Positions 9,060 to 57,106 of a stretch of DNA of 64,000 nucleotides are shown piece after piece (within the stretch, counting starts at the first letter, position 1; each line of letters begins with the position of its first letter). Origin of the DNA: Eledone cirrhosa (lineage: Eukaryota); the NCBI GenBank assembly GCA_964016885.1, contig OZ024742.1:147436001-147500000 (forward strand), in the 5' to 3' direction. A model generated the notes under the pieces. The model was given only the letters and a program-made list of their open reading frames with translations. It searched no databases and was not told the DNA's origin. A program made the position numbers and the translations under genes.

Positions 9060-9136
9060 ATGGCTCCCTTTTATTTGTTACTCCCATTGACCCTCTGTTC
9101 CTTGTTTTGCCCTACTTAATGAAGGCACAGAAAAAG
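9060..9136 (+). CDS. RNASEH2B: RNASEH2B exon 4 (DGSLLFVTPIDPLFLVLPYLMKAQKK)
   Basis: ttcag|...|gtaac, 77 bp; diagnostic TPxDPLFLxLxYL motif. Confidence 0.95.
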
Positions 9137-10419
9137 GTAACATAATATAAAATGACTTTTTGGACTTGCATATATTTGATAGGTGACCTGATTTGCATAT
9201 GTGTTGAAATTGTAACAATTTAGATGGACAAGTCAGTTTAACCATTAACCATTTCATTACCTGTGATTTTCAAATAATTTAGAAAATCAAAAATGTAGAG
9301 GGATTTAGTAAATCTTTCTCATTATTAACCATTTAGCATTTACATTGCTCTATATTTACTATTATAGTGTCACTAAAGGCTTTATCTTGCATAATTATCC
9401 CACATGTTATTTATTTTGATAACAATACCTTAATGTCAGTATGAGTGGCCAATTATGGTCAGTTTGAACAGAAAGAGATGAGAAAATTCTGGCCAGATAT
9501 GTCCTGTTTAAATGCTAAAAGGTAAAGCTGGTGTTTGACCATAACTTAACAAAGCTTCATACATAAAATTATGATGAGGTTGTTGTTGTTGTTACAGCTC
9601 ACCTAGGTATGTTTAGCTTATCTGCTATGGGGTTATATCTCATAAGTAGTTTCTTTGGTGTTTTAATGATAGGAGCCTCAGTCTTATCAAACACCAATCT
9701 TTTGTAGGGGTTAACTCCCAGTACTTATGTTTTTTCAGCTGCATGGACTGCCACAATGTAAAATGCAGTTACTTGCTCAAGCACATATCACACTACTGGG
9801 TCTGGGGATTAAACATTATGATTGTGAGTCCAACATCTTAACTACATCTTCATAAGTTTGTTAGATACATATAAACACTTTAATTCTTTTGACACCAAAC
9901 TGCCTGGAACCAGTACTAGTTCTATGTTAAAGTGTTTATCATCATGATCACCGTTTAACATCTATTTTTCCAAGCTAGCATGGGTTAGATGAGTTGTCCT
10001 GTTGTGAGACAAGTCAGAGCAGGTGACCATGTATTGCTGATACAGAACTGGTTTATATTTATCTAAAAACTTTCCATCATAATTTTATGTAAGAACGATT
10101 GATAAGTTATATTCCAAACATGATAATAATGAGAAATTTTAAATTATAATATTAAACCTGTCCTAATTCTTGAATATTTGCAAAATTATTTTAAAATGTA
10201 AGCAGTGTCTTTCATTAGAAATATGGTAATGAAAGGGTTAAAGTGTTTATATTTATCTAAAAACTTTCCATCATAATTTTATGTAAGAACTTATGTTTAG
10301 TCTTTGGAAATAAGTAGAACTTAATTTTTATTATACAGAGCATATAAATAAATTTACAGTAGAATAACATAAAAATGTTTTAAATATATACATAAATAAC
10401 ATTACAAATGCTTAGATAA

Positions 10420-13400
10420 CATTATAAATTGCTCGCGATTCTTTCAGAAAGATATATTCTTTTAATGTTACAATATTAAAGAAAATGTATGTAAAGGGAG
10501 GGGTGAACAACCGAGCCAACACCAGAGCAAAAGACAGCAACGTCGCGAGGAGTACCGGGCGACCTCTCTAATGATTTTTGAGGCAAGCCAGCACACTCGC
10601 AGCGTTGCCTCGGGTGATGGCGAAGCTAATGCGCTGGAACAACCAAGCGCCCTCGCGAGATTCGCCAGTTACCTCTATTAGGCGAGCCGCCAGTGAAGAG
10701 AGGAACCTCGCAGAAAGCGGCCCGACTTCCCCAAACGTCTCGAAAGCCACAGGCTGAAAAATGTAGCTGGCCGACAGATCAGAGTATTTGAGGGTCTTAC
10801 TCCGCTCGGCTGCAGAAGCTGTGGCTCTTGTCTTAACCGCAGGATCCAGGATGTGGGAAAAAGCAAAAGAGTCACTAACAGTGACGTCCCAGACAATGTT
10901 ACACTATTAAAGAAAATGTAAACTGAGCCAACACCAGAGCAACAGACAGCAACGTCGTGAGGAGTACCGGGCAACCTGAGAATGAGGTTTAGCTCCGTGT
11001 GACGCGCGAAGTGGCCGGCATTCAGGCGGCAAGAAAGACTGTGGAGTCGAGGAGTTTGCCGCATCAGCACCTCAAACCCATGCAGACATGAAGTTTGTCT
11101 AGACTGAGTAGGCTACCAGCGTTGGCCACAGGTAGGGCCTTAACCCAGTCGCCTGAGTATTTGGCGCTGGCAGATAGTAAGCGGCACCTTGCAAACTGAT
11201 CCGACTGGTCGAAGGTGGCCTTCAAACTTATGCTGCCCCAAGTTCTCTGACTTCGACTGTCCTCCACCTTCTCAGGAAGAGACAAGCCCAACTCACTCCA
11301 TTGCTGGAGAGCTTCACCCAACTCCCTGTTGGAACCAGTCCATGTTGGAGAGGAGGGGATGCTGCTCACCAGGGTGGAGCAAGCGTGGGTGGAGGAAAGG
11401 AAGCAGGGGAGAGAGAGGGACAAACACTTACAAAGACCAAGACCCTCAAATCGCTTGGGCAATGCAACCTCATCGCAGAGAGAGTCTAACATTTACCAGG
11501 CACTCGAGTCTCTCGAAGATTAGGTCGTCGAAGCTTTGGAGGCAGGACAGAAATCTGAGAGGGGCTGACCCTGAGTATGAAGAAACCTTGATGGGGTTCG
11601 ATAACTTCAATATTCCTCAGCAGCTGCTCAAGGCCAACCATCTTCGATTGGAAGATGGACTCGAAGGCAAGGTCTGTAATTGGGGCTCCTAAGGAGCTCC
11701 AAGCCGATGGGGGAAGGACCGCAATGGAAGGGAAGGACTCTGCAAACAAGTCGATTAGCTGTTGGTGTTGAGAAACCGGGTGGCTGAGAATCCAGAGCTC
11801 ACATTTGGAGCTATTGACCTGGAGACCCCGGCGGCCAAGCTCCTCAACCATTTTGTTGGCAGTGGCGAGAACCCTATCCGGAGTTCCCCCCCAAACAAGC
11901 GTCGTCGAGGTACCAGACATTGAGGTCCAACTTAACCCCATCTTGGAGACGTCATCAATGCCCAGTGCAAACAGAGCGGGCCCGAGTGGGTCACCGAAAG
12001 AGAGGTAGGAGGGCTCTTGATAAGCCTGCCAAGCAAAATGGTAGAGTTGTGGGACCCTCTCTCTTACTGAGTCGAGGACGACGTCGCGGCTGATGGAGTT
12101 GCTGAGGTCAAGTTTGTGGATGACCTTGGTGGACAAGGAGGGCAAGTTGGTAATGTGCAGTCAACCGCAATGCGGCGCAGGTCTCCGTTGGGCTTGGTGA
12201 GACCAAATAGCTTCGCACCGAAGGACAGTGGGCGGATGAACGGGAGAACGTTCACTGAAGAGAACTGATTCACAAACTGAGTCAGACTCTCCAAGAGCTT
12301 GAGTCCGGCGTCACCGGCCGATAAGGAGATACCATCCTTCAGGTGTTGAGGACGAAGGCCGTCAATTCCCGCACCTGACCCAGCGAGGAAGGATGAAATC
12401 GCCTTTCTGATGATATTGGTGGTGTAAACCGGTCTCGAGTATTCTGGTGGTTCAGGCCAGTGTAGCTGATCATCTGGGGGTGCCGATGAGTGCTTCTCTT
12501 TCAGTTGCTCAAGAGAATCAGAGTTGCACGGAGCAAGGGAGGTCAGAGAAGAGAGGAGACGGACAGCCCCTTTAATGTCAAATTTGCTGAATTTGGCATT
12601 GACCGCTCGCTTGAGGTCTATCGGTTGCCTGTTGGTGGACACCGGGCTCGATGTTGAACTGAGGTGAAGCGTGGTTGGGGTGGACTCAAACAGATGGAAC
12701 TGCCGCTTGAGAGAGGACGTGAGGGAACCCGAATTCGCATTGTGCACGTGAAGAGAGATGAGGGGAAACAAAAACAATTTCTGCCAGTCAGACCTATTGT
12801 TGGACGAGCAAACGTTTTTCAATAAATTAGAGAGGACACGTGCAAAGCTATTCCAAGCTCTCTAAGGGATCGGGTTAACGAGCTTTGATTTGGAGAAACC
12901 CTGGAGGGCTGTGGCAAAGTCGTCGGTAGAGAGTTGGTCATCGAAGCGCGGGGCATCCCCACGGAATACGTCGGAGCTGAAGTGGCACCGATTACAGGTC
13001 CAGTGTTGAAGCCTTTCGGCTTGAGCTTTGGTGATGCCGACACAGCTTCTGTGGTAGCTTGCGTGGAATAGGTGACATTTAATTGTCTTTAAGTACTGGC
13101 TAGTGTGGGCACAGAGAGCACAATCAGGTGGTGGGCTGGCAGCAGAGGGCCAGCGTTGGAATTCGGTGGAGGGAGTGAGTCAGTAAAGGAGACAGCAGTG
13201 GTTCTAATGGTGGGACTAGAGCGGAGGTTGGGTGGTGTGGTTGGCCGGGTTGAATTCGCTCAGAATCTGTGGTGAAGAGGAGGAGGGGGTAGGTGGGGGA
13301 AGTTAGCTTCTCTCGTGCGTGCCAAAGTTGGTGGAGAATGATAGGTCGAAGGCTGACTGTTTGTCACATAGTTGTTCCACCAAGCAGGTCTCTTGGTCGT

Positions 13401-17289: not shown

Positions 17290-17740
17290 TGAGAGTGTGG
17301 TGTGTGTTATATGTATGTTGGCTGTGTGAGAGTGTTGTAAGTATGGTGACTATATGTGAGCGTGTGTTGTATGTATGGTGACTATATGTGAGAGTGTGTT
17401 GTATGTATGGTGACTATATGTGAGTGTGTTGTATGTATGGTGATTATGTGTGAGAGTGTGTTGTATGTATGGTGACTATATGTGAGAGTGTGTTGTATGT
17501 ATGGTGATTATGTGTGAGAGTGTGTTGTATGTATGGTGACTATATGTGAGAGTGTGTTGTATGTATGGTGATTATGTGTGAGAGTGTGTTGTATGTATGG
17601 TGACTATATGTGAGAGTGTGTTGTATGTATGGTGACTATATGTGAGAGTGTGTTGTATGTATGGTGACTATATGTGAGAGTGTGTTGTATGTATGGTGAC
17701 TATATGTGAGAGTGTGTTGTATGTATGGTGATTATGTGTA
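17290..17740. repeat. About 32-bp minisatellite TGTGAGAGTGTGTTGTATGTATGGTGACTATA, about 13 units
   Basis: Direct inspection. Confidence 0.9.
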
Positions 17741-28224: not shown

Positions 28225-30076
28225 CAAGTGCCAAGAAGAAAGCTGCGTGGAAGAGCCATTATGAAATATTACTAAATGCGGAGAATGCATGGGAAAAAGA
28301 GACCCTACCCCAAATGGACCCTATAGAGGGGCCAGCAGTACAAGTCAGCAGCAGCGTAGTAAGGCAATCAAAGATATGAAGACGGGGAAGGCAACCGGAC
28401 CATCGGATATAGCTGCCGAGATGCTGAAGGCATCTGGGTTGGTAGGTCACACCATAACCACACATATTGTTAACCAGGTAATACTAGAAGGTGTCATACC
28501 AAAGGATTGGCGCAGCAGCATCATTGTCAACTGCTACAAGGATAAAGGTGATGCACTAGATAGAGGAAACTATAGAGGTATAAAGCTGTTGGACCAGGTC
28601 AGGAAAGTAACGGAAAGAGTTATAGCACGGTTGATTAGGGACCGGGTGAAACTAGGGATGCAATTTGGGTTTGTACCAGGAAAAGGCACTACTGTTGCCC
28701 TCTTCCTTGTGAGGCAGTTACAGGAAAAGTACTTAGCTAAAAGTAAGCTGCTCTACCTGGCATTCGTCGATCTGGAAAAAGCCTTCAACAGAGTCCCCCG
28801 TGCTATAATCTGGTGGTCTCTTAGAAAATTAGGAGTAGATGAATGGCTTGTGAAAGCTGTACAAGCCATGTATAGAGGAACAGTCAACAAAGTTAGAGTT
28901 AGCAATGAATTTAGCATACAGGTCGGTGTCCACCAGGGCTCTATTCTTAGCCCTCTCCTGTTCATTATAGTTTTGCAGGAAATAGCAGAGGAGTTTAAGA
29001 CCGGATGCCCATGGGAACTCCTGTATGTGGATGATCTCGCACTTATAGCTGAATCCATGGAACTAGAGAAGAAATTCCAAACATGGAAAATTCCAAACCT
29101 GACAAAGACTAAGGTTCTTGTAAGTAGACGAGAAAACAGAACCCAGATCCCCTCAGGGAAATGGCCTTGCTCAGTGTGTAGGTAAGAACTCCATCCTCTG
29201 CCCCAAATGCAAACAATGGGTACACAAGAGATGTAGCGGGATCTCAGGAAGTTTAATTAAGAATGTAGGTTTCATATGTAGCAGGAAACAAACACCACCA
29301 AACTCTGGGAGGGCTCTGTAGAAACAGTAGACAGCTTCTGCTACCTAGGTGATCGAATTAACAGAGGAGGTGGGTGTTCGGAAAGTACAATAACTAGGGT
29401 AAGAACGGGATGGAAGAAGTTCAGGGAGCTGCTGCCACTGCTAGCTGCAAAAGGCTTTTCCCTCAAAATGAAAGGCAGACTATGATGCGTATATACGAAC
29501 AGCAATGTTACATGGTAGTAAGACCTGGGCGCTGTCTGTAGAAGACAGGAATCAAATGCTGTGTGCAGGAGAGGAGGTTACATTGGTATGGACATGTGAT
29601 GCGTAGGAAGGATGACAGCTGCAGAGCACTGGAAGTTGTGGAGTGGGGAGACCTGGGATCAGGTGATAAAGGCCGACCTTACCCAATTGCTCCTCTCAAG
29701 GGCAATGACACACGACCGTGACCTCTGGTGTCACGCAGTAACACAGAAGGCCTGACCCCCCCACAGGAACAAGCCGAAGCTGAAGCATATAGACTAGGCC
29801 CCATCCCCTCCCACTGCAAAGTGGTCGTGGAGGTGCCACGGCAAAAAAGCACCCAGCCCACACTGTAAAGTGGACATGTAGGTGTCATGGAAAAAAGCAC
29901 CCAGCACTCACTATAAATGAGATTGGTGTTAGGAAGGGCATCCAGCTGTAGAAATCAAACCAAAATCAGTTCCTCTATGAGCAAGACAAGGTCAGCCGAC
30001 TGGACACTGCTCACAACAGGACAACCCGTCTAACCCATGCTAGCATGGAAGAACGGACATAAAAACGATGATGATG
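28225..30076 (+). mobile_element. 5'-truncated RTE-clade LINE (RT domain, 3' UTR, (GAT)n tail)
   Basis: ORF 28289-29185 has NYRGIKLL, QFGFVPGKGT, FVDLEKAFNRVP, GVHQGSILSPLLF, LLYVDD; downstream frameshifts and stops. Confidence 0.92.
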
Positions 30077-40002: not shown

Positions 40003-40296
40003 TTACATGTGAGTGTCGCTGAATGGAGTTTGTGGATATATGGAGTTATTTTCTGTGTCACTGTCACTAAAGACCGTCAAACTCTTATCTCCAATAGAAC
40101 TGCTTGGTGTTAAATCATAATGGCGACGGTAATTTGGAGATAGGAGTTCATGACTTATAGGACTAGATAAGGTTGATGTAGCAGCTTGTTTGTGAATGCA
40201 AGAACTTGATACACGGGATGAACGAGTCATTGAGACCCTTCGGAAGCGCATAGTGCTTGGGAAGCAGTTTAGTTTCATTTTGATGGTATGACGGAC
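40003..40296 (-). CDS. Class B GPCR last exon, helix 8 and Ser/Thr-rich C-tail (VRHTIKMKL...FSDTHM*)
   Basis: tttgcag|GTC continues NCE|VR; 97 aa then TAA; candidate AATAAA on - at 39970-39975. Confidence 0.85.
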   Translation of the reverse strand, partial: VRHTIKMKLNCFPSTMRFRRVSMTRSSRVSSSCIHKQAATSTLSSPISHELLSPNYRRHYDLTPSSSIGDKSLTVFSDSDTENNSIYPQTPFSDTHM

Positions 40297-42594
40297 CTGC
40301 AAATAAAATACGTTATCTTGAATAAATATAAACGTTTAAAGGTGTAAATGGTATCATTTATCATCATCATTTCATTTTTACGTCCGCTTTTTCCCTGCTT
40401 GCAAGGGTGGGACGGGAACTGATTCTGGCTTGATTTCTACAGCTGGATGCCCTTCCTAACACCAACCTCATTTACAGTGAGTGCTGGGTGCTTTTTTGCC
40501 GTGGCACCTCCACGACCACTTTGCAGTGGAATGTTAGGGATCCCAGTCCCTATCATCTCATTTCTACAGCTGAGTAAACTGGAGCAATGTGAAATAAAGT
40601 GTTTTGCTCAAGGAAACAACACATCACCCGGTCTGAGAATTGAACTCACAACTCTTCGATTGCAAGGCCAATGCTCTAACCACTAAGCCATGTGTATATT
40701 TATATTTATATATAATACATATGACAACAGTACTCAATACAAGGACAAAAGGTAGATTTATAAAAAATATAATATATTTTCAAGCATAGAAAATATAGTT
40801 AGCTATTGATTTTGATATGATATCATATTCGTTTATTATTTTACTGGTTTCAGTCATTACATTGTGGCCATGCTGGAGCACTTTCATGAAAGGATTTAGT
40901 CAATTATATTGACTCCATTACTTATTTTCCATATGTAGATGTAAATAGGAATGGAAACTGTAGATGGCCATGGTTCCTGGTTTATGGAGACAATTAAATA
41001 TAATGGAAGACCCCTACCATCTACTGTATGTAATTAACCCATAATGGATTATGAGTTAATTATTTATAATTAGTTATGTCTGAGGATGTGAAAGGTAAAT
41101 CATGAGTTATAAGCCCTAGTATTAGATCTAAATTTGATACCCTAAGTTAACAGTTCTTTAATCTCAGGAGGTAAATGGAGAATAGGTGGTAGTAGCACTT
41201 GTCCTTTACCACAACATAAATTGAATGGAGGATTTCTCTGGAAGTTTTTGAAGAATCTTTCCTGGAGCCATGTTTTAAATGTTCAAAACATTGCTTATCC
41301 ATCTTTCCCATATAATTAATTTTAATTCCATCTTTTATAAACTTCCTGATGTAAAAGAACCATGCAAAAAAAAGGAGGCATGAATTATCACTATAAAATA
41401 ATTATGAATAAATTGGAAGAGTATAATCTGTGGGATTTGAACTCACATCTGCCTTTCCTTTTGATAATTCATTGACTATCATTCATGTATTTTCTCTTTG
41501 TGTTTCAAAACTTTCTCTGACCTTTAGTAATTCTAGATTAATGTTGTCAAATATATAATTGATGACACCACTTTGAAAAAAGAAAATCACAAATTCTGCT
41601 TGCCATCTTCCAATAGTTGAACATTTTTATAGTTTGCTCTATTAATTTGACCTGCTTGTGTGTGTGTGTGTGTGCAGGCTTCCCCCACTTTAGTTCTCCC
41701 CTCCACTCACATCTTTCACTGTCCAACCCATTCCAGCATGGAAAGACAGATGCACACTTCCCTCACAATTTGCCACCCTGATCCACCCAGATCCCCAGTT
41801 CACTTTCCTCATTCAACCCAAGCCATTTTGGAAAGCCGAGGATGCTCCACAATATACTGCTAGATTTCACTTACTCTCTTTAAGGTCACCCACACGTCTT
41901 GCTGCTTGCTGTCCCACTATTGGATGATTTCCCTCCCCTCAACAAACAAGATGTAGCTCTCCCCCCACCAACTCTTACACACCCACTCCACTGCTTTCTC
42001 AGCCTGGCCTAAGTCACAGCTAGTGCATTAGTGTTGGTGCCATAGTAAAAAGCCCCTAATCCACTCTGCAAGGTGGTAGTGCTGGTGCCACAATAAATAA
42101 CAGCCAGTCCACTTTCCAAGGTAGATAGCTATAGTGCTATGATAAAATGCTTCCAGTATATGCTGTAAAGTGGTTGGCATTGAGAAAAGCGTCCAGTGAT
42201 TGAAACCATGCCAAACATGGAACATATCAGCTATACATGGTCACCTGACTGACCTTACCTCAGATCGGGATAATCTGTCTAATCCATGCAAACATGGAAA
42301 AAAATCATTAAATGGTGATGATAATGATGAAACTTACACACACAGACTCTCACACACACACTCACACATACATACACACACACATATATACACACACAGA
42401 CATGCACACGCATACACACACACATACATACACACACACATATATACACACACAGACATGCACACGCATACACACACACACACACACATATATCCACATT
42501 CTCATCATCATTTTACATGCTTTTTTTTGCTGGCATAGGTTGTATGGGTCATTACAGACTAAGTACTTAATTGGAGCTAATCCTCACATGTTTA

Positions 42595-42630
<36 letters not shown>

Positions 42631-42726
42631 ATACAAATACACACACTCATGTATGCACACTCACATGTGTACATAAAAATATGTATAAATGTACACACAC
42701 ACACATACACACATATATATATATAT

Positions 42727-43136
42727 ATCATCATTGTTTTTACGCTTGTTTTTTCCCACTTGCATGGGTTGGATGGGTCCTTTTCAGCACAGCATTTCTC
42801 CACTTGTCATATTCTTCTCTCATCTCCTCTGTGTGTCTCAGCGATTTAAGATCAGCTCTTACCATCTCTGCCCAGGTCTTCCTTGGTCTACCTCTACTGT
42901 AGCTTCCTTCCACTAGGATTTCCTGGCACTTCTTCACCCAGCGATCATCATCCATGCACATCATATGTCCGTACAAACGCAGTTTTCTCTCATGCACACC
43001 ACTTCAAACTCTTCTTAAACCCAGTTTCTCCCTTCGTTCATCAAAGCTTTGCTTTTCTTTCACATTTTCTTTGCACATCCAACGAAGCATGATTGCTTCA
43101 TTTCTCTCCAGCCTATACATGTCTTCTGCTGTCGGG
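42727..43136 (-). mobile_element. RTE LINE 3' fragment, short-UTR subfamily (related copies near 2995-3300 and 5150-5530 on +)
   Basis: ERKLRLYGHMM...RGRPRKTWAEMVRADLK. Confidence 0.75.
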
Positions 43137-43675
43137 GCTAAATTTTAATTCTACTTTCAAGTTGAGCCAACTTACACAGTTCCATATGCAAATGATGCTC
43201 ATCAGCCCATCTAAACAGGTGAAAAAACTATATATTTTCGCCTGTGTCAAGTTCTAGCAGGAAACTAGGAAAAACTAGGCAAGATTTGTTGAAATTCAAA
43301 GAAACATTTACTATACAATACAGTCTCTAACATGTGTTTCAATTCAGTTATGCAATTGCCTGTGAAGACTGGATTATCAAATAATCCATAATCCGTTATC
43401 TTGCACTACATAGTTTAAATCTACATTTCATCAGTACCTTGTTCATATTAAATTACTCCTTGGAACCTATGTACGATATTCAATGATATATTTTGTATCC
43501 AGATATTTATGTTACACAACTCCATCGACCATGTCAAGCACATAAACTGGTAAGCTGTCTCTTCCATTTTTTTGTCGTATATACAATTTGATACATATTT
43601 GATGCATATACAATTTACATAAACAATAATTAACCTACATAAAACGGATACTTCTATTTCATCACACACACATGT

Positions 43676-43707
<32 letters not shown>

Positions 43708-43733
43708 ATATGTATGTATATATATATACATAT

Positions 43734-44319
43734 ATTGTTATACTTTGGGAGGGTCATGTTGCCAATAAGAAACACACACACCTGTTGCTTTCACTTCAAT
43801 TTATTATAATAAATTTATAAATTTAGGAATTTATAAATTTCCGGTTGATTGGTTGGTTCCACAACCAGATGATTGTTTATATATTGTCAAAGTTCTTTCG
43901 TCACACATTCTGTGACCTTTTCAGTGACTGGGGATTCTTTTCTTTGTTTTTGTGCCTCTCCTTTGTTCTGTCCTACACCATCTTGTTTTTGACAAGATGG
44001 CGTAGGACAAGATGGCGTAGGACAAGATGGCGTAGGACAAGATGGCGTAGGACAGAACAAAGGAGAGGCACAAAAACAAAGAAAAGAATCCCCAGTCACT
44101 GAATGTGTGACGAAAGAACTTTGACAATATATAAACAATCATCTGGTTGTGGAACCAACCAACCAACCAGAAATTTATAAATTTATTATAATAAATTGAA
44201 GTGAAAGCAACTGGTGCGTGTGTTTCTTATTGGCAACATGACCCTCCCAAAGTATAACAGTATCTGTTTCAACACACGTTTTCAGATAAAGAATCTTGCT
44301 AAACAAATTCAGAAACAAA

Positions 44320-44320
<1 letters not shown>
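43734..44320. mobile_element. Fold-back element with about 250-bp inverted arms, Penelope pLTR-like, with a degenerate hammerhead core
   Basis: 43734-43985 is reverse-complemented at about 44040-44259; flanked by (TA)n and (TG)n. Confidence 0.65.
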
Positions 44321-44399
<79 letters not shown>

Positions 44400-44505
44400 C
44401 TATTGATGTATGTATTTTATATATACATAAATGTGTATATCTATGTGTATATTGTTTGAAATTCAAAAACTAAAAATTAAAGAATGTATTCTGCTCTCAA
44501 CTTAC

Positions 44506-44547
44506 CTCACAGTTTAAAAAACAGTAAAAAACTGCCACAAAAAGGCC
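44506..44547 (-). CDS. Class B GPCR 42-bp TM7 exon (GLFVAVFYCFLNCE)
   Basis: ttcag|...|gtaagt; classic 14-aa GxxVxxxYCFxNxE exon of secretin-family receptors. Confidence 0.95.
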
Positions 44548-46159
44548 CTGAAAGAGGAAACAGGAAAAAGTCATCAATTTAAACGGAAATAAAGTAATGT
44601 TAACTAGAGTGTTCTTCATTGTATGATTTTATTTTGTAAACTATGAGAATGGCATGAATTGGACCTCCGTTGGTTTAAATGATGTTCCAGTTGTTCAATC
44701 AATGAGGCAGCCTGCTCAGTGAATTAATATTCATGTGGCTGAGCAATACACAAACATATGTATCCTACATGTGATACTCAGGGATATCTAGTATGATTAT
44801 AGTGTGTGACAAGGCTGGCCCTTTGTATTATGAGTACAGTCCATCTTATATTATGCAGTGGATTGGCAGAATCGGTAGAGCGTCAGACAACATGCTTAGC
44901 GACACAGAGTTATGGCCCTTTACGCGCTGAGTTCAAAACCTTCCAACATTTCTTTGCCTTTCATCCTTACAGGGTTGATAAAATAAAGTACCAGTACCAG
45001 TAATGCACTGGGGGCGATTTAATTGACTTTCCCTCCTCCCAAAATTGTTGGCCTTATGCCTAAATCAGAAACCATTATTGTGTAAACAGCTGAATGTTCT
45101 GCAGACACATGTACCCATAATGTAATAATACTCAGGGAGATTCAGTGTGATTATAGTGTGTGACAAGTATAGTTCATCTTGTATTATTCTGTATCGGCAG
45201 AGGGTCAGACTCCATGCTTTGCAGCAAAGAGTTACGGCCTTTTATGGTCTGAGTTCAAATTCCGCCGAGGTTAACTTTGCCTTTTATCCTTACGGGGTAG
45301 ATAAAATAAAGCACCAGTAATACACTGGGATAATTGCTGGCCTTGTGCCAAAAGTAAAAACAATTATTGTGTAAATGGCTGACTGTTGTACACACACATG
45401 TACCCTGATTGTAATGCTCAGTGAGATTCAGTGTCATTATTGTGTGCAATAAGGCTGACCCTTTAAATTAGTGGTACAGTCCATCTTGTATTATAGTTTA
45501 AGTGGCGGTGGATTGGCAGTATCAGTAGAGGGTCGGACGCCATGTTTTGTAGCAAAGAGTTATGGCCCTTTACGGTATGAGTTCAAATCCTGCCGAGGTT
45601 AACTTTGCCTTTCATCCTTACGGGGATCGATAAAATAAAGTACCAGTAATACACTGGGGTATTTGCTGGCCTTGTGCCAAAATTAGAAACAATTATAGTT
45701 TAAGTGGCTAAGTATTCCACAAACATGAGTAAAGTAATTCTCAAGGAGATTCAGTATGACATAGTGAGTGACAAGGCTGGCTTATTCAATTACAGATCTA
45801 GTTCATATTATATTATATATTTAATATAATAAAATAGGATGGTGAATCGGCAGTATCGGTAGAGGGTCGGACGCCATGCTTTCCAGCATAGTTACATCCC
45901 TTTACGATCTGAGTTCAAATCCCACCAAAATTAACTTTGCCTTTCATCCTTACGGGGTCAATAAAATAAAGTACCAGTAATGTACTGGGTAATTGCTGGC
46001 CTTGTGCCAAAAGTAGAAACAATTATTTTATATATTTAATATAATCATTGGCAACACAGTTTTTATAGTCATTGTTTTATATTTGAATTCCAGAAGAATA
46101 TTTAATTCCTGTGAAGGTACTGTTCTTTCTGTTATTTTACACATCCTTATGATCATCTC

Positions 46160-46163
46160 CGCT

Positions 46164-46209
<46 letters not shown>

Positions 46210-46253
46210 CCACAACCACCACCAACAACAGCAACAGCAACGGTTTAACTCCC

Positions 46254-46291
<38 letters not shown>

Positions 46292-46430
46292 ATCATCATC
46301 ATCATCATCATCACAACCACCACCATCACCAACAACAGCAGCAGCAAGAGCTTAACCCCCCCCCATCCACCACCACCACCACCACTAACAACAACAACAG
46401 CAGTAGCAGCATAACTACCACCACCCACTA

Positions 46431-46462
<32 letters not shown>

Positions 46463-46715
46463 ACATCATCATCACCACCATCATCATCACCATCACCATC
46501 ACCATCATCATCTTTATGTCCACCTTTCCATGCTTGCATGAGATGGATGGGTCATTTCAAGCAGTTTCCCTCCACTTGTGTTATTTTGTCATCTCCTAAT
46601 CATCATCAGCACAACTACCACTACCACCATCACCACCACCACCACCACCAACACCATCATCATCACCACCACGCCCACCACCATCATCATTTTCATCACC
46701 ACCACCACCACCACC

Positions 46716-46747
<32 letters not shown>

Positions 46748-46775
46748 CAGCAGCAGCAGCAGCAGCAGCAGCATA
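46160..46775. repeat. Mosaic trinucleotide microsatellite (CAT/CAC/CAA/CAG/TAC)
   Basis: Direct inspection. Confidence 0.9.
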
Positions 46776-47094
46776 ACCCATCGTGAGATTCAGTATTTTG
46801 AGTTTAACCCTCATCAGCTCAGGTTTTCCTTGCTCTTGCTCTACCACATCTTACTTACACTTGGATCTCATGGCACTTCAACTATCATCATCTATATAAA
46901 TCACATACAGCTACCAGTGTAATCTTCTCTCTTACATACTACATCTGATCCCTCTTTATGCCTAGTTTATCCTTCAACTCATCCATGCCATGTTGTTCAT
47001 GTACACTAACATTACATATCCAATGGAAGGGGCTCAATTTATTTCTCTCCAGTCTTCTTATATTTTCAGTAAATACACAAAAATATAGACATAC

Positions 47095-47230
47095 CTGAAA
47101 AGATTGTAGTATGGTATCTGTATAGATTAAGATCACTGCAGATATGGAAGCCTCACTTGGTTGAAATATAAACATTACGTAAGTTATACCCAACAGAGGG
47201 AGAAGAACCAAGGCACCCTTGACAGCTTTT
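47095..47230 (-). CDS. Class B GPCR exon, TM6-ECL3-TM7 (KAVKGALVLLPLLGITYVMFIFQPSEASISAVILIYTDTILQSFQ)
   Basis: ttcag|...|gtatgt, 136 bp; PLLG and SFQ motifs, closest from memory to CRF receptor KAVKATLVLLPLLGITY. Confidence 0.95.
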
Positions 47231-48027
47231 CTGAAATTAAAGAAAACATGTATATATACACAAATTTATATACATATCATCATCATCATCATTTGACTTC
47301 CATTTTCTCCGCTAGCAAGAGTTGGACAGGTCTTCATAGACCAAGTCAGTACTGAAGCAGAGCTACTGACCTCCCAGACAGGCCAGGAGGTCTGAATCTC
47401 ACTTACGTATGGTTTCACATTCTACCGAGTGCACAGGGGAGGTTGTCATGTCTTTGATACAACTGAAGGGTCCTCCCAAGGATATGTTTGGCAAGCTTTC
47501 TATGGCTGGATGCCGTTCCTATCACCAACCACTTTACAGTGTGTACTGGGTGCATTTTCATGGCACCAATGTCTGAGAGGTTGTTGGTCTTTGTTCCAAT
47601 GGAAGAGCCCTCTTTATTGGGAGTTGGGTTGGAAGGATAAAAGGGAGATAATTTTGAAGTTGTGGCAAGTGTGGTGTAATTTGACAGGGTGATGATTAGG
47701 GAAACGAAACAGGTGACTTTTGATAGCACAGAGGGAGAGGAGATGTGGTGGTAAGAATACTGAAGTGGAAATAGGGGTGACTGGTTTGGTCAATAATGCA
47801 GGGTAGGTGGTGAGGGATGGCACTCACCATGCTTGGAAGGGGAGTTGTAGAAATGGAGAGAATAGCTAAGAAATCCATCAGGGTGTTTCCCAACATGCCC
47901 ATTGTAGTTGCCAGCTGCAACAATAATATCACTGTCATTTGTCATTGAAGTAGTCTGTAATCTTCATAGAAATGGTCTTTCTGCTCATCTCCAAATCCAG
48001 CTGTAACGATGAAAGAATGGTATTTAA

Positions 48028-49450
48028 CTAATGTATTGTTACATGATGGGGCCCACCCACAGCCCCGGCAGACAGAATAGAGAAGGCGTTTCCCCGGAGG
48101 ACGGCAAGGGAGACGCGCTGGAAAAGCCACTCCAACTCGCGGGGCTCACACCTGCGGCTGGCCAGCTCAGCGCCTATAGTGGTGAGTAGGGAAGTAGCCC
48201 TGGGGCCAAGGACACCAGAAGTTTCCACTGCCAGGGGAACGACCGCAAACCTGTTGGAGAGCGACCGGTATTCGAGGAGTTTCGCCTCCTCAGCCCGACG
48301 TGCAGCAGAATCTGGGTCAGTCGCAGACTGCACCAGGTTGCGGCTGCAGAAAGTGTTGGTGCAAGTGGCATCCCAGACGAGGGGTTTGCCACCGCGGAAC
48401 GGAAAGATGGTCATGCCATCTGGCCTTTTGCCGTCTCCTCGATCCAGCCCCACCGGCTCGAGCTGGGAAGGGAAGCCTGCAGCGTCCAAGCCATGCTTAA
48501 TGACCTCGTTGAGGGCAGTATGGCGTGGAATGCAGCCGGCACTGTGGTGACAGGAAAGCGGGTGGAGGCCGAAAGAGCCCACAGTGGAACCGCAGCGACA
48601 TTGGTGTGGCTGGCAGATCCGGAGGCCGAGCCTCAGGGAAACGCTGATTCTCAGGCTATGGTTGTTTAGCTGCGTGCCAGTGGAGAAGGAGGGCAGAGCA
48701 TGGAGCCAGGCACCACTGTGGCGTTTGGAGACCGCACAAAAACAAGCAAGGCGGTGCTGGTCGAGCTGGCACGTGAGCCTGTCTGAGGCCAGGCTGCACT
48801 GGATGGCATCCCAAGTGCGTTGGGGGGGACTTTACGTCAACAGGGGAAGAAGGAGGAGGGACGTCTACTGGGCAAAGTCCCAGCTGGTCCCACGTCTCAC
48901 AGGCGGCCTCACGTTCTCTGAACACAGAGGGTTCTGTTGTGTTTTAAAGAACCCTGCTGATGAGGACGCGGCACGAGGTTACCGACGAAAGATATGCCAG
49001 CAAAGCTAGTGAGATCGGGGACCGGAGGCCTAGGCCACCATACCTGACCGGTAAAGTGGCCTGTTGCCACCCTATGTCGTCAAACTTGACGTTGCATATC
49101 CCTTCGGCTGCTGCTCGGATACAAGTATCGAGGTCAGCGAGGAGAGATGACTGGGTGTAGCATGGAATGTTGCGGAGTGTATAAAGGAGCTTCAGCATGG
49201 CGAAGCAGTTCCTCAGCAGGGGGTCACCTGAACCTGGCGGAGAATGGACCGCACGTCGAAGACGGAGGCTGCAAAGCTCACAGCATCGAGGCTGATGTTC
49301 ACCACCTCTAACTTGGCCGAGTTGACCTGGAAGCTGATTCCCACCAGGGCAGGAATCACCAATTGAAGGTCTTCGCAGACTGTCTGTACAGGCCCGCCCA
49401 ACGTAGCATCATCCAGATACCAAACGTTGAGAGGGGCTGTGATACTCCGG
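48028..49450 (-). mobile_element. 5'-truncated CRE-clade retrotransposon, second family
   Basis: WYLDD RT motif near 49400-49420; CxC...HPLSC...RH zinc knuckle, DGKRPDG...WDATC...VETSG...LFQRVSLAVLRGNA endonuclease domain. Confidence 0.88.
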
Positions 49451-49519
49451 TCTAAGTTTAATTACTCTATCATTCACTCTGACCACCTCAATTACCTGGT
49501 CTACCCATCTCTTAGCTAG

Positions 49520-51313: not shown

Positions 51314-51378
<65 letters not shown>

Positions 51379-51381
<3 letters not shown>

Positions 51382-51892
51382 CACTTTTGAATTTGTTTTG
51401 CGAGATTTCTTATCTGGAAACGTGTGTTGAAACAGATATTGTTATGCTTTGGGAGGGTCATGTTGCCAATAAAAACACACACACTGTTGGTTTTCACTTC
51501 AGTTTATTATAAATTTCTGGTTGGTTGGTTGGTTTGATAACCAGATGGTTATTTATATATTGTCAAAGCTCTTTTGTCATGCATTCTGTGACCTCCTCAG
51601 TGACTAGGTTTTTATTTTGTGTCTCTCCTTTGTTCTGTCCTACACCATCTTGTTTTTGTGTGTTGTGTGCTTAGTTTGCACATGTGTTAAATCCAGGTGT
51701 GTGTGTGTGTGTGTTTATTTATTTATGTGTTTATTTACTTGTCATTAGTTGGTTGTTTGTTCTATCAGTGTGTCTGATTTGTTTTGTTAGTTTGATTTTT
51801 GTGTGAAACCAGAAATTTATAATAAACTGAAGTGAAAACCAACAGGTGCATGTGTTTTTATTGGCAGGATGACCCTCCCAAAGTATAACAAT
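51379..51892. mobile_element. Second copy of the same fold-back family with a partial inverted arm
   Basis: 51437-51657 matches 43734-43990; 51808-51892 is an inverted copy of the arm; embedded in (TA)n. Confidence 0.65.
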
Positions 51893-52266
51893 ATATATAT
51901 ATGTATATAGGAGGGTGTTGTAACTGCTTCCTAAACATACCTACTTTTCAGATTCCCTAATATTTCAAGCTCTACAACACCATCTCATTCTTACACCTAA
52001 GCCTGTGCTAGTTTGCAAATGTCAAGGGACTTTACAGAATATCAGAGAAATGGGTCTGAGCTGGTTGCCAAATTAACTTTCTTAAACACTGTCTGAAAAA
52101 CCACACAGTTTCCAACACAATCAAAAACATCCACCTTCCTGGGTTCCTTCATTCACAAGTTTCAGAAACACCACTAACCAATTCCCTTCTGACTTTGTTG
52201 CTTTGTTGCCTTGGTATTTCAAACCCACCTGCATTGTAACAGCTTCCTAAACACATCCACTTTTCA

Positions 52267-52868: not shown

Positions 52869-54456
52869 CAGTGCCCCGCAAAAGTTTACAACACATTAGG
52901 AAAAATGCGGTTTTAGGTATTTTTAATAAAGTTAGGGTAATGAAAATTTAACTACTGATAGAACATATAATGAGGCATTTAATGATACAATCATATTTTT
53001 AAAAAAGTAACAAGGAAATAACTCATGAAGAAAAATCAATATTTTTATAATGCAAAAGTTTACAACACATTTATTAAATCATCTCTTAATATTTCGTAGC
53101 GTAACCTTTGTTGCTAATTACAGCCTGTAGGCATTTGGAGTAGCCTCCTACAAACTTCTTGCATGTTTCTTGGCTAATATTTATCCATTCTTCACAATAA
53201 ATTTTCTTTAGTTCAGGGATATTTTGGGGTTTCCTTTTTTGAATTCTCTCCACAAATTTTCGATCGGGTTAAGATCTGGAGACTGACTTGGCCATTTTAG
53301 AACATTTATTCCATTCGTACTTAACCAAGATTGTGTTAGCTTTGCAGTATGCTTTGGATCGTTATCTTGTTGAAAAAACCAACCTGGCTTTAAGCTGAGA
53401 GAATGTGCACTTTGATGTAAATTCCTTTGCAAAATACCTCTATAATAAGCGCCACCCATTCTTCCTTCTATTATTTCAATATTTCCTACTCCTGTGGCAC
53501 TAAAGCAACCCCAGACCATGACTGATCCACCTCCAAATTTTACAGTTGGAATAGTATTCTTCGGCGAATATTCAGTACCTTTCTTTCTCCAGACTTTTGC
53601 CACAGCATTTCGACCAAAAAGTTCAATTTTTGTTTCGTCCGACCAAAGTACATCTTCCCAAAATGACGCAGGTTTGATGAGATGCTCATTTGCAAAGTTT
53701 AATCGACGAAGAACGTGTTTCCTCGTAAGAAGTGGTGTTTTCCTTGGAGACCTCGAGAAGATATCATATCGACGAAGTGAACGACTAATTGTATCTGTGC
53801 TCACTTTTACTCCACTTTCTTCTAGGTCATCCTGAATATTTTTAAGAGTACACCGGGGTTCGTTGCCAACCTTTCTCGTCAATAACCGAGCTGCACATTC
53901 CGTTATCTTTCTAGGACAACCAGAACTAATTAGAGGACAGATGGAATGATGAGATTTCCAGTGACAAATTATAGTCCCAACTGAACTCAATGGCACATTT
54001 AACTGACAAGATATCTTTCTATAACCAACACCATTTGTATGAAGGTCTACAATGCGTTTACAGAGGTCTTGATCAATCAGTTTATTTTTCCCCATATTGT
54101 CAATGTTTACAGGACGGTTGTCAATGTTTACAGGATGGTTGTCAGACAAATAATGACGTAATGTTTTTAATAGTCCTTAGAAGTTACCTTAAACCTAATC
54201 TAGAACATTCTACTGAATTTTAAATCTGAAAATTTAAGAATTTTCTTGAAAAAAAGCGATAAATATAAAATGTGTTGTAAACTTTTGCGTTATAAAATAT
54301 TGATTTTTCTTCATGAGTTATTTCCTTGTTATTTTTGTATCATTAAATGCCTCATTATATGTTCTATCAGTAGTTAAATTTTCATTACCCTAACTTTATT
54401 AAAAATACCTAAAACTGCATTTTTCCTAATGTGTTGTAAACTTTTGCGGAGCACTG
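52869..54456 (-). mobile_element. Tc1-family DD34E DNA transposon with about 200-bp IR/DR terminal inverted repeats and TA target duplication
   Basis: TA|CAGTGCCCCGCAAAAGTTTACAACAC...GTGTTGTAAACTTTTGCGGAGCACTG|TA; direct repeat GCAAAAGTTTACAACACATT at both ends of each TIR. Confidence 0.95.
53086..54095 (-). pseudogene. Tc1 transposase with one C-terminal frameshift
   Basis: MGKNK start; WSDETK, QQDNDPKH, SPDLNPIENLW with 34 residues between the second D and E; C-terminus RKPQNIPEL...KGYATKY* in another frame after about 53235. Confidence 0.92.
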
Positions 54457-54639: not shown

Positions 54640-56755
54640 CTGTACATGGTTACACTGAACTAGCTTCTCTTTTTAACACTCGGCAATATATTTTTCATGT
54701 TATCTTTTTATTTTCTCTCTTGTATGAAAAAGCTATTTGCATAATACACATCATATTACAGTACTACAGATATTTGGTATGTATGTATGTGGTTTGGAGT
54801 CGGAGTTTTCACCAGAAAGCTCAGCATAGATGACTGTTTTGTTTGCTTTTTTTTCTCATCATAGATTTCACGATAGCAACGTAGTCCATCTTCCAAATGT
54901 CTTTGAAATTTTGCCAAGCGTTCAATGTGAGGATCCATTGCCTCCAATCCTGACATCACCTTACTCATATGCGTGAATACTTCCGCCAAGCCCTTAACAG
55001 TGAACTTTTTCTGTTCCTCATCTGGTTGTTCTGCTGCTTCTTCCAACTCTTCTCTATGTCTCTGCTCTTCCAACTCTATTAAATCTTCATCAGTCAACTC
55101 TCCTTCAACAAAGTTCACTAAATTTTCCACATCTTGCGCATTCACTTCCAACCGCAACTTTTGAGCAAGACCAACAATTTTATTACTTATCACTTCAAAA
55201 TCTGAATTTTTATCAAAACCTTCAAAATTATTAACAAACCTTTTCAAGCACTTTTTCCATACACCTTTCATACCTCTTTCACTCACGTCCTGCCAAGCTC
55301 CGTCAATGTTCTTGATGCAGTTGACAATATTAAAATCTTTCCAAAATTCACGAAGATCCATTACGTCATCCTCCGTTGCTGTTACTGCCTGTGCAAAAGT
55401 AGTTCGTAAATAATACGCCTTGAAAGTAGATATCACCCCCTGGTCCATTGGTTGAAGAATTAACGTCGTATTTTTGGGCAGATAAACTACTTTAATATTA
55501 GGATGCAGGTCATCAATATGTTGAGGGTGGCCTGGGGCATTATTGAGGAGAAGTAGAATCTTGAAGGGAATGTTGTTTTCAAGGCAGTATTCCCTGGCTG
55601 CAGGTATAAAGCAGTTGATGAACCAGTCCTCAAACAAAGATTGCATCATCCATGCCTTGTTGTTTGCCAGATAAAACACTGGTAGCATGTTTTTGTTCAC
55701 GTTCTTTAATGCACGTGGGGTTTGAGAGCGATAAATGAAAAATGGTTTTAACTTATGCCCCGCAACATTTCTGCCTAAAAGCAACGTTACTCAATCCTTG
55801 AATGCCTTGAACCCGGGCATACTTTTAGCCTCTTTGTGAAGATACGTTCTTTCATACATTTTTTTCAAAAGAGGCCAGTTTCGTCGACACTGAAAATTTG
55901 TTCCAGGCGATAGTCTCCTTCCTCGATAATCTTGTCTAAAACATCGAGGAATGTTTTTGCTGCTTCACCAGTAATACGACGGTTGTGCAAATTAAATCGA
56001 CGACGAAATTGCTGGAACCAATGTCTCCCTCATGTGACTTGAGTTTCTCGAAGATGCTGCGCGCCTTGCTTTGAATAATATGAAGACTCATTGGCATTCA
56101 TTTGGCTATTTGGTCATCAAACCACATGGCCAACACTTTCTCCATTTCATGTATCAGGCCTTTTCGCTGTCTTGTTATCAAAACATTGTATCCCATTGTG
56201 TTCTTGGCCGTCTCCTTCACTTGTTCTTTGTTCTTGAGGATGGTAGATATAGTAGAACTTGCCAAGTTCATTCTAGCAGCAATTGCGTTCTCTTTACCCC
56301 TTCTTCATATTGTTTGATGATCTTCAGCTTTGTTTCTATATCAATGGATTTCCTTGACTTCTTGGGATAAGGTCCTGGTGTAGTACTGGTTCTTTTTGCT
56401 GACATCTTGAGGGATATAACGGTATCGAAACGAAAAATTACTTGGTAACTTCTAAAGTTCAGTGGATACACTCAAATGACGCCGCGAAAGGTGATGAGCT
56501 GGAGGCTGCTCAGCACTGCCGGTTGCTTCTGCCCAACTTATCGTACACAACTGCGTTCACTTTCACTCACAACTGTGCTGTCACTGTTCTCTGCAGATCG
56601 TAACTGCGAGGTATTGTCGTTGAGCGAATATATTATTGACGAGTCAACGAATCGTAATTTCGAGAGATTTTTGTTAAACTGATATATGTAACTCGTGAAG
56701 TTGTTCGTAACTCCGAGAGGTCGTTAAACGAGTAGATCGTTAAATGAGTATATGT
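54640..56755 (-). mobile_element. Decayed Tigger/pogo (TIGD1-like) DNA transposon
   Basis: N-terminal RKSIDIETKLKII HTH, FSVDETGL, LLLLNNAPGHP (catalytic D to N), LQPMDQGVI; several frameshifts and stops; left TIR not found. Confidence 0.88.
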
Positions 56756-56778: not shown

Positions 56779-57106
56779 CTTCGCGCATGCGCACTTCGGA
56801 CCAGCCTTCGCGGTTGCGCACTTCGAACCAGATTTCGCACATGTGCAGTTCGGACCAGACTTTGCGCATGCGCAGTACGGACCATATTTCGCGCATGCAC
56901 AGTACGGACCAGCCTTCGCCCATGTGCAGTACGGACCAGACTTCGTGCATGCGCAGTACGGACCAGCCTTCGCGCATGCGCACCTTGGACCAGACTTAGT
57001 GCATGCGCTTCAGACCAGCCTTCGCGCATGCGCACTTCCGACCAGCCTTCGCAAATGCAGAATACGGACCAGCCTTCGCACATGCGCAGTACAGACCAGA
57101 CTTCGC
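56779..57106. repeat. GC/CpG-rich 27-bp tandem repeat CTTCGCGCATGCGCAGTACGGACCAGC, about 12 units
   Basis: Direct inspection; 9-aa periodicity in the overlapping ORFs. Confidence 0.9.

What the first reader, a model, noticed from the sequence alone, without database searches (positions are those of the whole stretch)
43734..44320. Palindromic fold-back element carrying a minimal hammerhead-ribozyme-like core (Penelope pLTR or retrozyme-like)
Seen: a near-perfect palindrome of about 530 bp. Its - strand (43886-43928) reads GTCA CTGAAAA G GTCAC agaatgt GTGAC GAAA GAAC TT TGAC. The sister copy (51562-51604, -) reads GTCA CTGAGGA G GTCAC agaatgc ATGAC AAAA GAGC TT TGAC. The two copies have complementary core lesions, so their consensus gives stem I GTCA/TGAC, CUGAGGA, stem II GTCAC/GTGAC, GAAA, a 4-nt stem III loop and a UU cleavage site. 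Known: minimal type I hammerheads with tiny stem III, partial inverted pLTRs and microsatellite-associated insertion are features of Penelope-like elements. Inference: a non-autonomous self-cleaving retroelement family. Both cores are in the GPCR sense orientation. Caveats: one extra G before stem II is non-canonical, and the right-arm core (about 44095-44125) has lost half of stem II.
Basis: partly seen in the sequence, partly recalled or inferred. Interest (0 to 1): 0.72.

Follow-up and report, generated by a model that had tools for sequence, protein, structure and literature searches.

The report
Two-armed Penelope fragment with minimal hammerhead
This mirror-image stretch is a broken, one-off insertion of a very common jumping gene whose end carries a small, likely self-cutting RNA motif; RNA-editing marks shared by both arms of sibling insertions indicate that the two arms are likely copied from one RNA molecule, which bears on an open question about how these elements insert.

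Summary
The palindrome (43732-44263, plus a 60-nt tail to 44323) and both hammerhead-like cores are real. It is not a non-autonomous family. It is a one-off pair of 5'-truncated 3' ends, joined head to head in a (TA)n tract, of a young autonomous Penelope-like retrotransposon (RT plus C-terminal GIY-YIG; 22,691 exact hits of its end motif). The family carries a standard minimal type I hammerhead: the 'extra G' is a published feature, and stem II covaries in a sister family. Both cores of this insertion are damaged, and cleavage is untested. Genome-wide, paired arms end at two fixed sites 60 nt apart, one site per arm (23 of 26 unselected pairs). In 10 of 12 informative ADAR-edited pairs both arms share sense-strand A-to-G marks, so one sense RNA likely templated both. 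This argues against a published antisense-template model; self-priming followed by deletion remains possible. 76 of 100 arms read through the ribozyme cut site. The RT has a conserved ~70-residue fingers insertion absent from the named C-terminal-endonuclease clades compared. The scan noted two-armed ends and single-RNA editing marks before on other DNA.

The parts
43677..43731 (.). (TA)n target microsatellite, left flank
43732..43991 (-). Left arm: 5'-truncated 3' end (pLTR) of the element, ending outward at end site 1 (26 nt into the ORF), no tail
   Evidence: up to 98% identical to other genomic copies
43886..43928 (-). Minimal type I hammerhead with G8>A lesion; predicted cut between 43890 and 43889
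   Evidence: G8A is recurrent decay
43991..44054 (+). 15-bp unit x4.3 at the arm junction, copied from the 5' end of the right arm (templated junction insert); holds the AAGATGGCG motif conserved in the sister family
44037..44263 (+). Right arm: second 5'-truncated pLTR copy, up to end site 1
44095..44125 (+). Right-arm hammerhead with a 12-nt deletion between short direct repeats (loses G8, A9 and the 5' half of stem II)
44238..44323 (+). First ~28 codons of the element ORF (ATG at 44238); the last 60 nt (44264-44323) are the tail, ending at end site 2
44324..44397 (.). (AT)n/(GT)n microsatellite, right flank
44506..44547 (-). 42-nt exon of a class-B (secretin-family) GPCR; the element lies in the following intron, about 180 nt past the donor
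   Evidence: upstream exon hits 7tm_2 at E 8e-9
51378..51894 (.). Sister insertion of an older subfamily: tailed arm on - (from 51378) and short site-1 arm on + (51807-51894)
51562..51604 (-). Hammerhead of the older subfamily with a CpG-type G12>A lesion and a weakened stem II

Best explanation
This is a one-off insertion of a young autonomous Penelope-like retrotransposon, made of two 5'-truncated copies of the element's 3' end joined head to head in a (TA)n tract, likely produced when both ends of the cut target each primed reverse transcription on one sense RNA at two fixed sites 60 nt apart, with the minimal hammerhead likely carried along uncut. Shown: identity of the family, its ORF, the two end sites, the one-site-per-arm rule, shared haplotypes and shared editing marks in sibling pairs, read-through of the ribozyme site. 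Inferred: the GIY-YIG domain cuts both strands in (TA)n; each 3' end pairs through the AATAT that ends both sites; two RTs copy the same RNA, the second displacing the first cDNA; host end joining fuses the two truncated ends, leaving microhomology or a templated insert such as the 15-bp repeat. The family hammerhead is under selection and probably cleaves only slowly, as a dimer or with the element's protein, at a step other than insertion. Confidence in the identity is about 0.97; the figure below is for the whole mechanism.
For: Identity: copies run upstream into an ORF with RT and C-terminal GIY-YIG (Pfam GIY-YIG 23.2 bits above its cut-off, RVT_1 weak at E 5e-4); the model's best structural matches are telomerase RTs (Z 15.4, rmsd 3.7, 363 aligned); partial tandems put the ATG inside the pLTR. 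Ends: of 235 ends, 83 lie exactly at site 1 and 105 exactly at site 2, both ending AATAT and typically followed by (AT)n. Unselected sample: 52 of 100 sites lie in 26 outward pairs, 23 of 26 are site 1 + site 2 (p 4e-5; one more has a mutated tail start). One template: arms agree at 223 of 234 subfamily-diagnostic cells against 80% for shuffled partners (max 91%). In 10 of 12 informative edited pairs both arms share sense-strand A>G marks (31/33, 24/25, 98/103, 11/15, 27/32, 31/31, 10/12, 43/52, 41/41, 91/91; unlinked edited arms Jaccard mean 0.19, max 0.48). Two patterns searched genome-wide matched at 96-100% only the two arms of their own locus among the 40 scored candidates each. In 4 of the 10 the tailless arm is the longer, so neither arm is a plain copy of the other. 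Ribozyme not cut: 76 of 100 arms span the cut site and none ends at it; edits destroy the core in inserted copies. A relative was shown in vitro to cut and extend both strands, start at two internal sites and not need ribozyme cleavage (PMC11167929).
Against: The window copy itself has no editing marks, so the one-RNA step is carried over from siblings; its own support is 11 of 11 shared diagnostic cells. Fold-back copying followed by off-centre deletion would also give shared edits and either arm longer. 10 of 45 joined pairs have arms equal within 15 nt (shuffle mean 3.6), which fits fold-back as well as run-off from one RNA end. The 91/91 pair has identical arms and could be an assembly fold-back. 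A source locus already carrying the edits was checked for only 2 patterns and only among 40 scored candidates each. Edited pairs were collected by searching with edited queries, so 10 of 12 is not a genome-wide rate. 2 of 26 unselected pairs are site 2 + site 2. Two partner arms end within microhomology of the ribozyme cut. No cleavage, protein activity or target-site duplication could be tested.
Confidence: 0.64

Rival explanations
1. One priming event at site 2; the cDNA folds back, copies itself up to site 1, jumps to the other target end through AATAT, and the palindrome centre is later deleted off-centre.
For: Explains shared haplotypes and edits, the tail at one end only, the excess of equal-length arms and overlaps at 17 of 45 junctions.
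Against: Without deletion the tailed arm must be the longer. It is the shorter in 17 of 31 unequal pairs and in 6 of 8 untied near-equal pairs, and some tailed arms are only about 20-30 nt long. In a relative both sites are RT start sites in vitro on both strands (PMC11167929).
Confidence: 0.25
2. One reading: the palindrome is the unit of a non-autonomous, self-cleaving retrozyme-like family.
For: Hammerhead in both arms. 2 of 12 edited pairs have A>G in the tailed arm and T>C in the other arm, with altered (TA)n flank, as expected if a whole hairpin transcript was re-inserted.
Against: No other locus has this junction's multi-unit repeat (one other has a single extra unit). Arm lengths run from 41 to over 1269 nt. 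No tandem monomers here. Arms are continuous with the ORF elsewhere. Both cores are damaged.
Confidence: 0.06
3. Self-priming on an antisense transcript, as proposed for rotifer Penelopes (PMC3846280, Discussion).
For: Published inference from palindromic junctions; antisense transcripts exist in the 2 whole-hairpin cases.
Against: An antisense template would leave T>C on the sense strand of both arms; 10 of 12 pairs show A>G on the sense strand of both arms and none shows T>C in both.
Confidence: 0.03
4. Fold-back DNA transposon or MITE with long terminal inverted repeats and a chance hammerhead-like motif.
For: Long inverted arms in TA-rich flanks.
Against: Arms are pieces of an RT-coding element; RNA-editing marks are fixed in copies; the motif covaries across families.
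Confidence: 0.01

Closest known systems
Canonical EN+ Penelope-like elements (Craig et al. 2021, PMC8557442; sections 6, 11, 12, passages and supplement parts 1, 2, 57, 58 read; Arkhipova et al. 2013, PMC3846280; passages and Discussion read)
   Same: Single ORF with RT then GIY-YIG, pLTR holding the first ORF codons, partial tandems, inverted 5'-truncated copy, tail at one end, (TA)n targets, Asn-rich ORF insert.
   Different: Tail is 60 nt rather than 30-40. Motif A to B spacing is 134 residues against about 64 counted by eye for Penelope in the paper's Fig. S7 alignment, where Poseidon, Nematis, Neptune and Hydra rows align without a long insert. The paper assigns a fingers insertion (about 20 aa) to N-terminal-EN clades, and sporadically Coprina, not to canonical ones.
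Minimal type I hammerheads of metazoan PLEs (Cervera and de la Pena 2014, PMC4209133; parts 1-2 of 4 read)
   Same: CUGANGA and GAAA core, unpaired nucleotide between 9 and 10.1, G10.1-C11.1, long stem II, 4-bp stem I, tiny stem III with a paired 15.2-16.2.
   Different: Nothing substantial; loop 3 is purine-only (AA, AG or GA), and the cut triplet is CUU or CUA.
Poseidon from Anolis (PAc; Frangieh et al. 2024, PMC11167929; parts 1-2 of 4 read)
   Same: Two internal RT start sites in the ORF start bounding the tail, AT-rich targets, both strands cut and extended, ribozyme cleavage not needed for insertion.
   Different: Here both sites end in AATAT and so match the (TA)n target, whereas PAc was reported to start at sites not homologous to the cut DNA. 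The ATG lies 144 nt downstream of the cut site rather than inside the ribozyme.
Nematis clade
   Same: Short Cx4CxxC linker, then C ahead of GIY-YIG, CCHH, similar endonuclease C-terminus (by eye against supplement rows).
   Different: The three Nematis rows shown lack the ~70-residue RT insertion; no tree with named references could be built.
Metazoan non-LTR retrozymes (Li et al. 2026, 10.64898/2026.07.22.740005; part 1 of 5 and passages read)
   Same: Type I hammerhead of PLE origin, no coding capacity in this copy.
   Different: Not a tandem monomer array; the sequence is the pLTR of an autonomous family and the junction is a one-off.

Membership tests
EN+ Penelope-like element | Single ORF with telomerase-like RT | tested here: met
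   1167-aa open frame in a genomic copy; top structure matches are TERTs. The window copy holds only the first ~28 codons.
EN+ Penelope-like element | GIY-YIG endonuclease with CCHH, C-terminal | tested here: met
   Pfam GIY-YIG above cut-off; I-TevI match Z 10.0, rmsd 2.2, 88 aligned; motif visible
EN+ Penelope-like element | pLTR from partial tandems, containing the ORF start | tested here: met
   L055 and L059
EN+ Penelope-like element | Inverted 5'-truncated copy with a tail at one end | tested here: met
   Window copy; 23 of 26 unselected pairs
EN+ Penelope-like element | Retained spliceosomal intron | not tested
   No RNA reads available
Minimal type I hammerhead (family consensus) | CUGANGA, GAAA, UH core | tested here: met
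   Intact in 53 of 71 unselected arms that span it; 5,586 exact copies of one variant. Not met in the window's three cores.
Minimal type I hammerhead (family consensus) | Covarying stems | tested here: met
   Two double-sided changes in stem II between families (one evolutionary event, 6 sequences). Stem I is only partly kept in the sister family.
Minimal type I hammerhead (family consensus) | Self-cleavage | not testable with these tools
   Needs an assay; no pile-up of copy ends at the cut site
Non-LTR retrozyme | Tandem non-coding monomers each with an intact hammerhead | tested here: not met
   Two inverted arms, both cores damaged, one-off junction
Non-LTR retrozyme | Circular RNA | not testable with these tools
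   No raw RNA reads to lay
Nematis clade | Short CX2-5CxxC linker | tested here: met
   (compared by eye)
Nematis clade | RT phylogeny | not testable with these tools
   No named reference sequences available to the tools; motif A-B spacing differs
Hydra clade | No CCHH, CxCX5C linker, under 3 kb | tested here: not met
   CCHH and Cx4CxxC present, ORF over 3.5 kb
Naiad/Chlamys | N-terminal endonuclease | tested here: not met
   Endonuclease is C-terminal
MITE / fold-back DNA transposon | Fixed terminal inverted repeats independent of an RT gene | tested here: not met
   Arms vary in length and belong to an RT element

The most novel reading that the evidence does not exclude
The element belongs to an unnamed, widespread Penelope lineage whose RT carries a telomerase-scale fingers insertion with a C-terminal endonuclease. 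It integrates by a two-RT, one-RNA reaction primed through AATAT microhomology at both target ends, which fossil ADAR marks record directly. The fold-back products are themselves transcribed, edited and sometimes re-inserted.
Probability: 0.35. Interest if true: 0.75.

Novelty: new member of a known kind. Interest (0 to 1): 0.5.

Why it matters
How Penelope elements make their inverted, one-tailed insertions is described as open in the papers read. Fossil A-to-G marks act as natural barcodes: they give the template strand (sense), indicate one molecule for both arms, and show that an intact ribozyme is not needed for insertion. A family with over 22,000 end-motif hits and open ORFs makes each step testable in a genome and at the bench. 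The conserved RT insertion may also mark a lineage missing from the current eight clades. The window copy itself is an ordinary dead fragment, apart from placing a ~230-bp hairpin in a GPCR intron.

Tried and rejected
(1) G8A as a mobile dead-ribozyme lineage: rejected. It has 71 exact copies against 5,586 intact, lies on many haplotypes, fits the background G>A rate of 2.7%, and the partner arm has G in 6 of 7 comparable pairs. (2) Telomerase-like repeat addition at a fixed template edge for the 15-bp repeat: only one other locus has a single extra unit, and other junctions carry other templated inserts, so end joining is preferred. (3) Arms as run-offs from a ribozyme-cut RNA: no ends at 166-174 nt among 100 unselected arms. 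(4) One arm from the short 5' pLTR of the mRNA: several pairs have two long arms. (5) A protein footprint as the cause of the edit-free 70 nt before site 1 (9 of 347 A; tail 0 of 294): weakened, because whole-hairpin copies edited there still inserted, and the queries biased the edit profile. (6) A transcription start at the AAGATGGCG motif: 10 ends among 64 at risk at 250-280 nt against about 5% elsewhere; modest after 16 windows, left open; the YY1 label is recalled and one search gave a listing only. (7) Rfam: no hammerhead match, only hairpin-driven miRNA hits below cut-off. (8) Sequencing runs: no RNA holder listed; laying four contig sets gave nothing on expression. (9) Pfam on the whole 1167-aa frame gave no hit; the Atlas gave unnamed RT/GIY-YIG clusters; family motifs were not found in the Craig supplement text. 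(10) A short stem-III dimer folds for the older loop but not for the main one, so dimer stability is unsettled. Literature searches that found no description of one-RNA two-arm synthesis or of this RT insertion: (Repbase, Dfam and subscription papers are not covered; bioRxiv supplements could not be seen).

Full report
Observation. The window shows two inverted arms, 43732-43991 and 44037-44263, with 221 matches, 6 mismatches and two gaps of 16 and 12 nt. A 15-bp unit repeated 4.3 times lies between them, and the right arm continues 60 nt further, to 44323. Both flanks are (TA)n-type microsatellite. A relaxed hammerhead descriptor finds only those two sites in the window and 0.07 per shuffled window. 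The predicted fold gives stem I of 4 bp and stem II of 6 bp, with an unremarkable z-score of -1.3. Rfam has no hammerhead hit here.

What it is. The left arm matches other genomic copies at 96-98% (40 scored of 1,680 candidates). [quoted passage not shown] An RT fragment retrieves 150 scored copies at 97-100% identity, some in open frames over 1,000 aa; one of 1,167 aa was read out. Pfam gives GIY-YIG above cut-off and a weak RVT_1 on the split protein and nothing on the whole. An AlphaFold model (pLDDT 86) matches telomerase RTs best. Two partial tandems show that the ATG lies inside the repeat and that the tail is the start of the ORF. This is the layout described for Penelope-like elements (PMC8557442 section 6; PMC3846280 passages). 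A 34-nt end motif has 22,691 exact hits. The nearest named protein is from Octopus vulgaris at 69%, so the host is probably an octopod.

The ribozyme. Among 157 copies the young family has core CUGAAGA, one extra G, a 6-bp stem II, GAAA, a 4-nt stem III/loop and UU or UA; the older subfamily, to which the sister copy at 51378-51894 belongs, has CUGAGGA and a different loop 3. A sister family at 66% protein identity has CUGACGA, an extra U and two double-sided changes in stem II (this is one evolutionary event on 6 sequences, and its stem I is only partly kept). The fixed differences between the two subfamilies fall in N7 and the loops. The extra nucleotide is a published feature of minimal PLE hammerheads, which cleave poorly and as dimers (PMC4209133 parts 1-2). 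In an unselected sample 53 of 71 arms spanning the motif have an intact core. The window's cores do not: G8>A on the left, a 12-nt deletion on the right, G12>A in the sister. G8A is recurrent decay, not a lineage.

End sites. Of 235 ends, 83 stop exactly 26 nt into the ORF (site 1) and 105 exactly 60 nt further (site 2); both sites end in AATAT and are typically followed by (AT)n. Taking the first 100 hits of the end motif without selection, 52 lie in 26 outward pairs, of which 23 combine site 1 with site 2, one more has a mutated tail start and 2 are site 2 twice. In the pooled, partly selected set 41 of 45 directly joined pairs do so. The window copy follows the rule. Junctions show overlap in 17, blunt joins in 4 and inserts in 24 of 45, often copied from nearby element sequence. 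The window's multi-unit 15-bp repeat occurs nowhere else; one other locus has a single extra unit.

One RNA for both arms. Paired arms agree at 223 of 234 subfamily-diagnostic cells against 80% for shuffled partners. Some copies carry dense A>G changes on the sense strand with fewer edits after G and more before G, the neighbour preference I recall for ADAR. I collected them with edited queries. Of 12 outward pairs with 10 or more edits in the shared stretch, 10 share them between arms: 31/33, 24/25, 98/103, 11/15, 27/32, 31/31, 10/12, 43/52, 41/41 and 91/91, against a mean Jaccard of 0.19 and a maximum of 0.48 for 453 unlinked comparisons. Left out of that count: one pair with no edits in the overlap, one with 7 of 9 shared, pairs with fewer than 5 edits, and inward-facing or same-strand neighbours (one inward pair 10 kb apart shares 27 of 29, one shares 1 of 18). 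The 91/91 pair has identical arms and may be an assembly fold-back. Two patterns searched genome-wide matched only their own two arms closely (next best 87% and 89%). In 4 of the 10 pairs the tailless arm is the longer one. The other 2 of 12 pairs have A>G in the tailed arm and T>C in the other, with altered microsatellite flank, as expected when a whole hairpin transcript is re-inserted. The window copy shows no such marks.

Mechanism. The best reading is that the endonuclease opens both strands in (TA)n, each end primes at one of the two AATAT sites on the same sense RNA, and host end joining fuses the truncated products. A lizard relative was shown to cut and extend both strands, start at two internal sites bounding the tail, and insert without ribozyme cleavage (PMC11167929 parts 1-2). 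Consistent with that, 76 of 100 unselected arms span the cut site, none ends there, and edited copies with a destroyed core inserted. The main rival is fold-back copying of one cDNA with later off-centre deletion; it fits the shared marks and the 10 of 45 near-equal pairs but needs deletion in about half of the unequal pairs. The antisense-template model proposed for rotifer elements (PMC3846280 Discussion) predicts shared T>C marks, which were not seen. Cutting, priming, strand displacement and ribozyme activity are inferred, not shown here.

Clade. The endonuclease has CCHH and a short Cx4CxxC linker like the Nematis rows of the published alignment, which rules out Hydra and Naiad/Chlamys as defined. 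The RT has 134 residues between motifs A and B, and 132-138 in the 111 of 122 proteins where both motifs were found, against about 64 counted by eye for Penelope in the paper's alignment. The paper gives canonical clades no fingers insertion. I could not build a tree with named references, so an unnamed lineage is possible but not shown.

Context and novelty. The element lies in an intron of a class-B GPCR on the minus strand, about 180 nt past a 42-nt exon, so the pre-mRNA would carry a long hairpin; no RNA data were available to test this. The element type, the ribozyme and the inverted layout are known. My searches found no paper showing one RNA for both arms or describing this insertion, but they do not cover Repbase, Dfam or most subscription journals. 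Unchecked notes of this scan report two-armed ends 59 nt apart, edited Penelope hairpins and single-RNA barcoding on other DNA; none covered this sequence or place. Verdict: new member of a known kind, interest 0.5, carried by the mechanistic evidence from the family rather than by this copy.

Noticed in passing
L307:1400-2150 (G000 C4:162095373-162096121) and L358:1200-2300: Fold-back copies with A>G in the tailed arm, T>C in the other arm and altered (TA)n flank: likely whole hairpin transcripts re-inserted in trans.
   Followed up: partly
L051:2688-6188, query residues about 240-312 of the 767-aa RT-EN part: Conserved ~70-residue insertion between RT motifs A and B with a CP-x-R...GR-x-P-x-x-T pattern, confidently modelled, in 111 of 122 proteins; also an Asn/Thr-rich N-terminal insert.
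   Followed up: partly
L217:2485-6126 (-): Sister family with an unbroken 1213-aa frame from the pLTR ATG to the stop; its tail is about 45 nt and its hammerhead covaries.
   Followed up: partly
window 43994-44047 and homologous sites: AAGATGGCG motif (YY1-like, recalled) kept in both families about 45-60 nt upstream of the core; 5' ends of arms are modestly enriched there.
   Followed up: partly
edited arms, first 70 nt before site 1: Edits start 73-108 nt before site 1 in most arms; an initiator-like TCACTT on the antisense strand at 60-65 nt could mark where transcripts start inside the inverted arm (inference).
   Followed up: no
window 40006-47241 (-): Class-B GPCR exons (TM6-7, 42-nt TM7 exon, probable C-terminal exon); the element's hairpin lies in the intron after the 42-nt exon and could attract editing.
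   Followed up: partly
window 2054-61041, many copies (families D9, D11-D14, D16, D18-D20): Abundant ~200-bp dispersed repeat on both strands, SINE-like (label recalled, not tested).
   Followed up: no
window 53211-54176 (-) and 54759-55790 (-): Tc1-type transposase ORF with inverted repeats at 52861-52995/54330-54464, and a DDE_1 (pogo-type) ORF.
   Followed up: no
window 28265-29182 (+), 8078-8515 (-), 11067-13179 (-), 48031-49461 (-): LINE fragments; the first hits RVT_1, the others gave no Pfam hit or were not scanned.
   Followed up: no
window 8771-9142 (+): Frame ends in a stretch resembling an RNase H2 subunit B exon (recalled motif; no Pfam hit).
   Followed up: no
window 17323-17739 and 56779-57106: 32-bp x13 and 27-bp x12 tandem arrays; the 27-bp unit contains a GCGCATGCGC palindrome also seen in the element's 3' UTR.
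   Followed up: no
G000 C12:17009248-17468697: Eight sister-family copies, seven identical in score, spaced about 60 kb apart, suggesting a large tandem segmental duplication.
   Followed up: no
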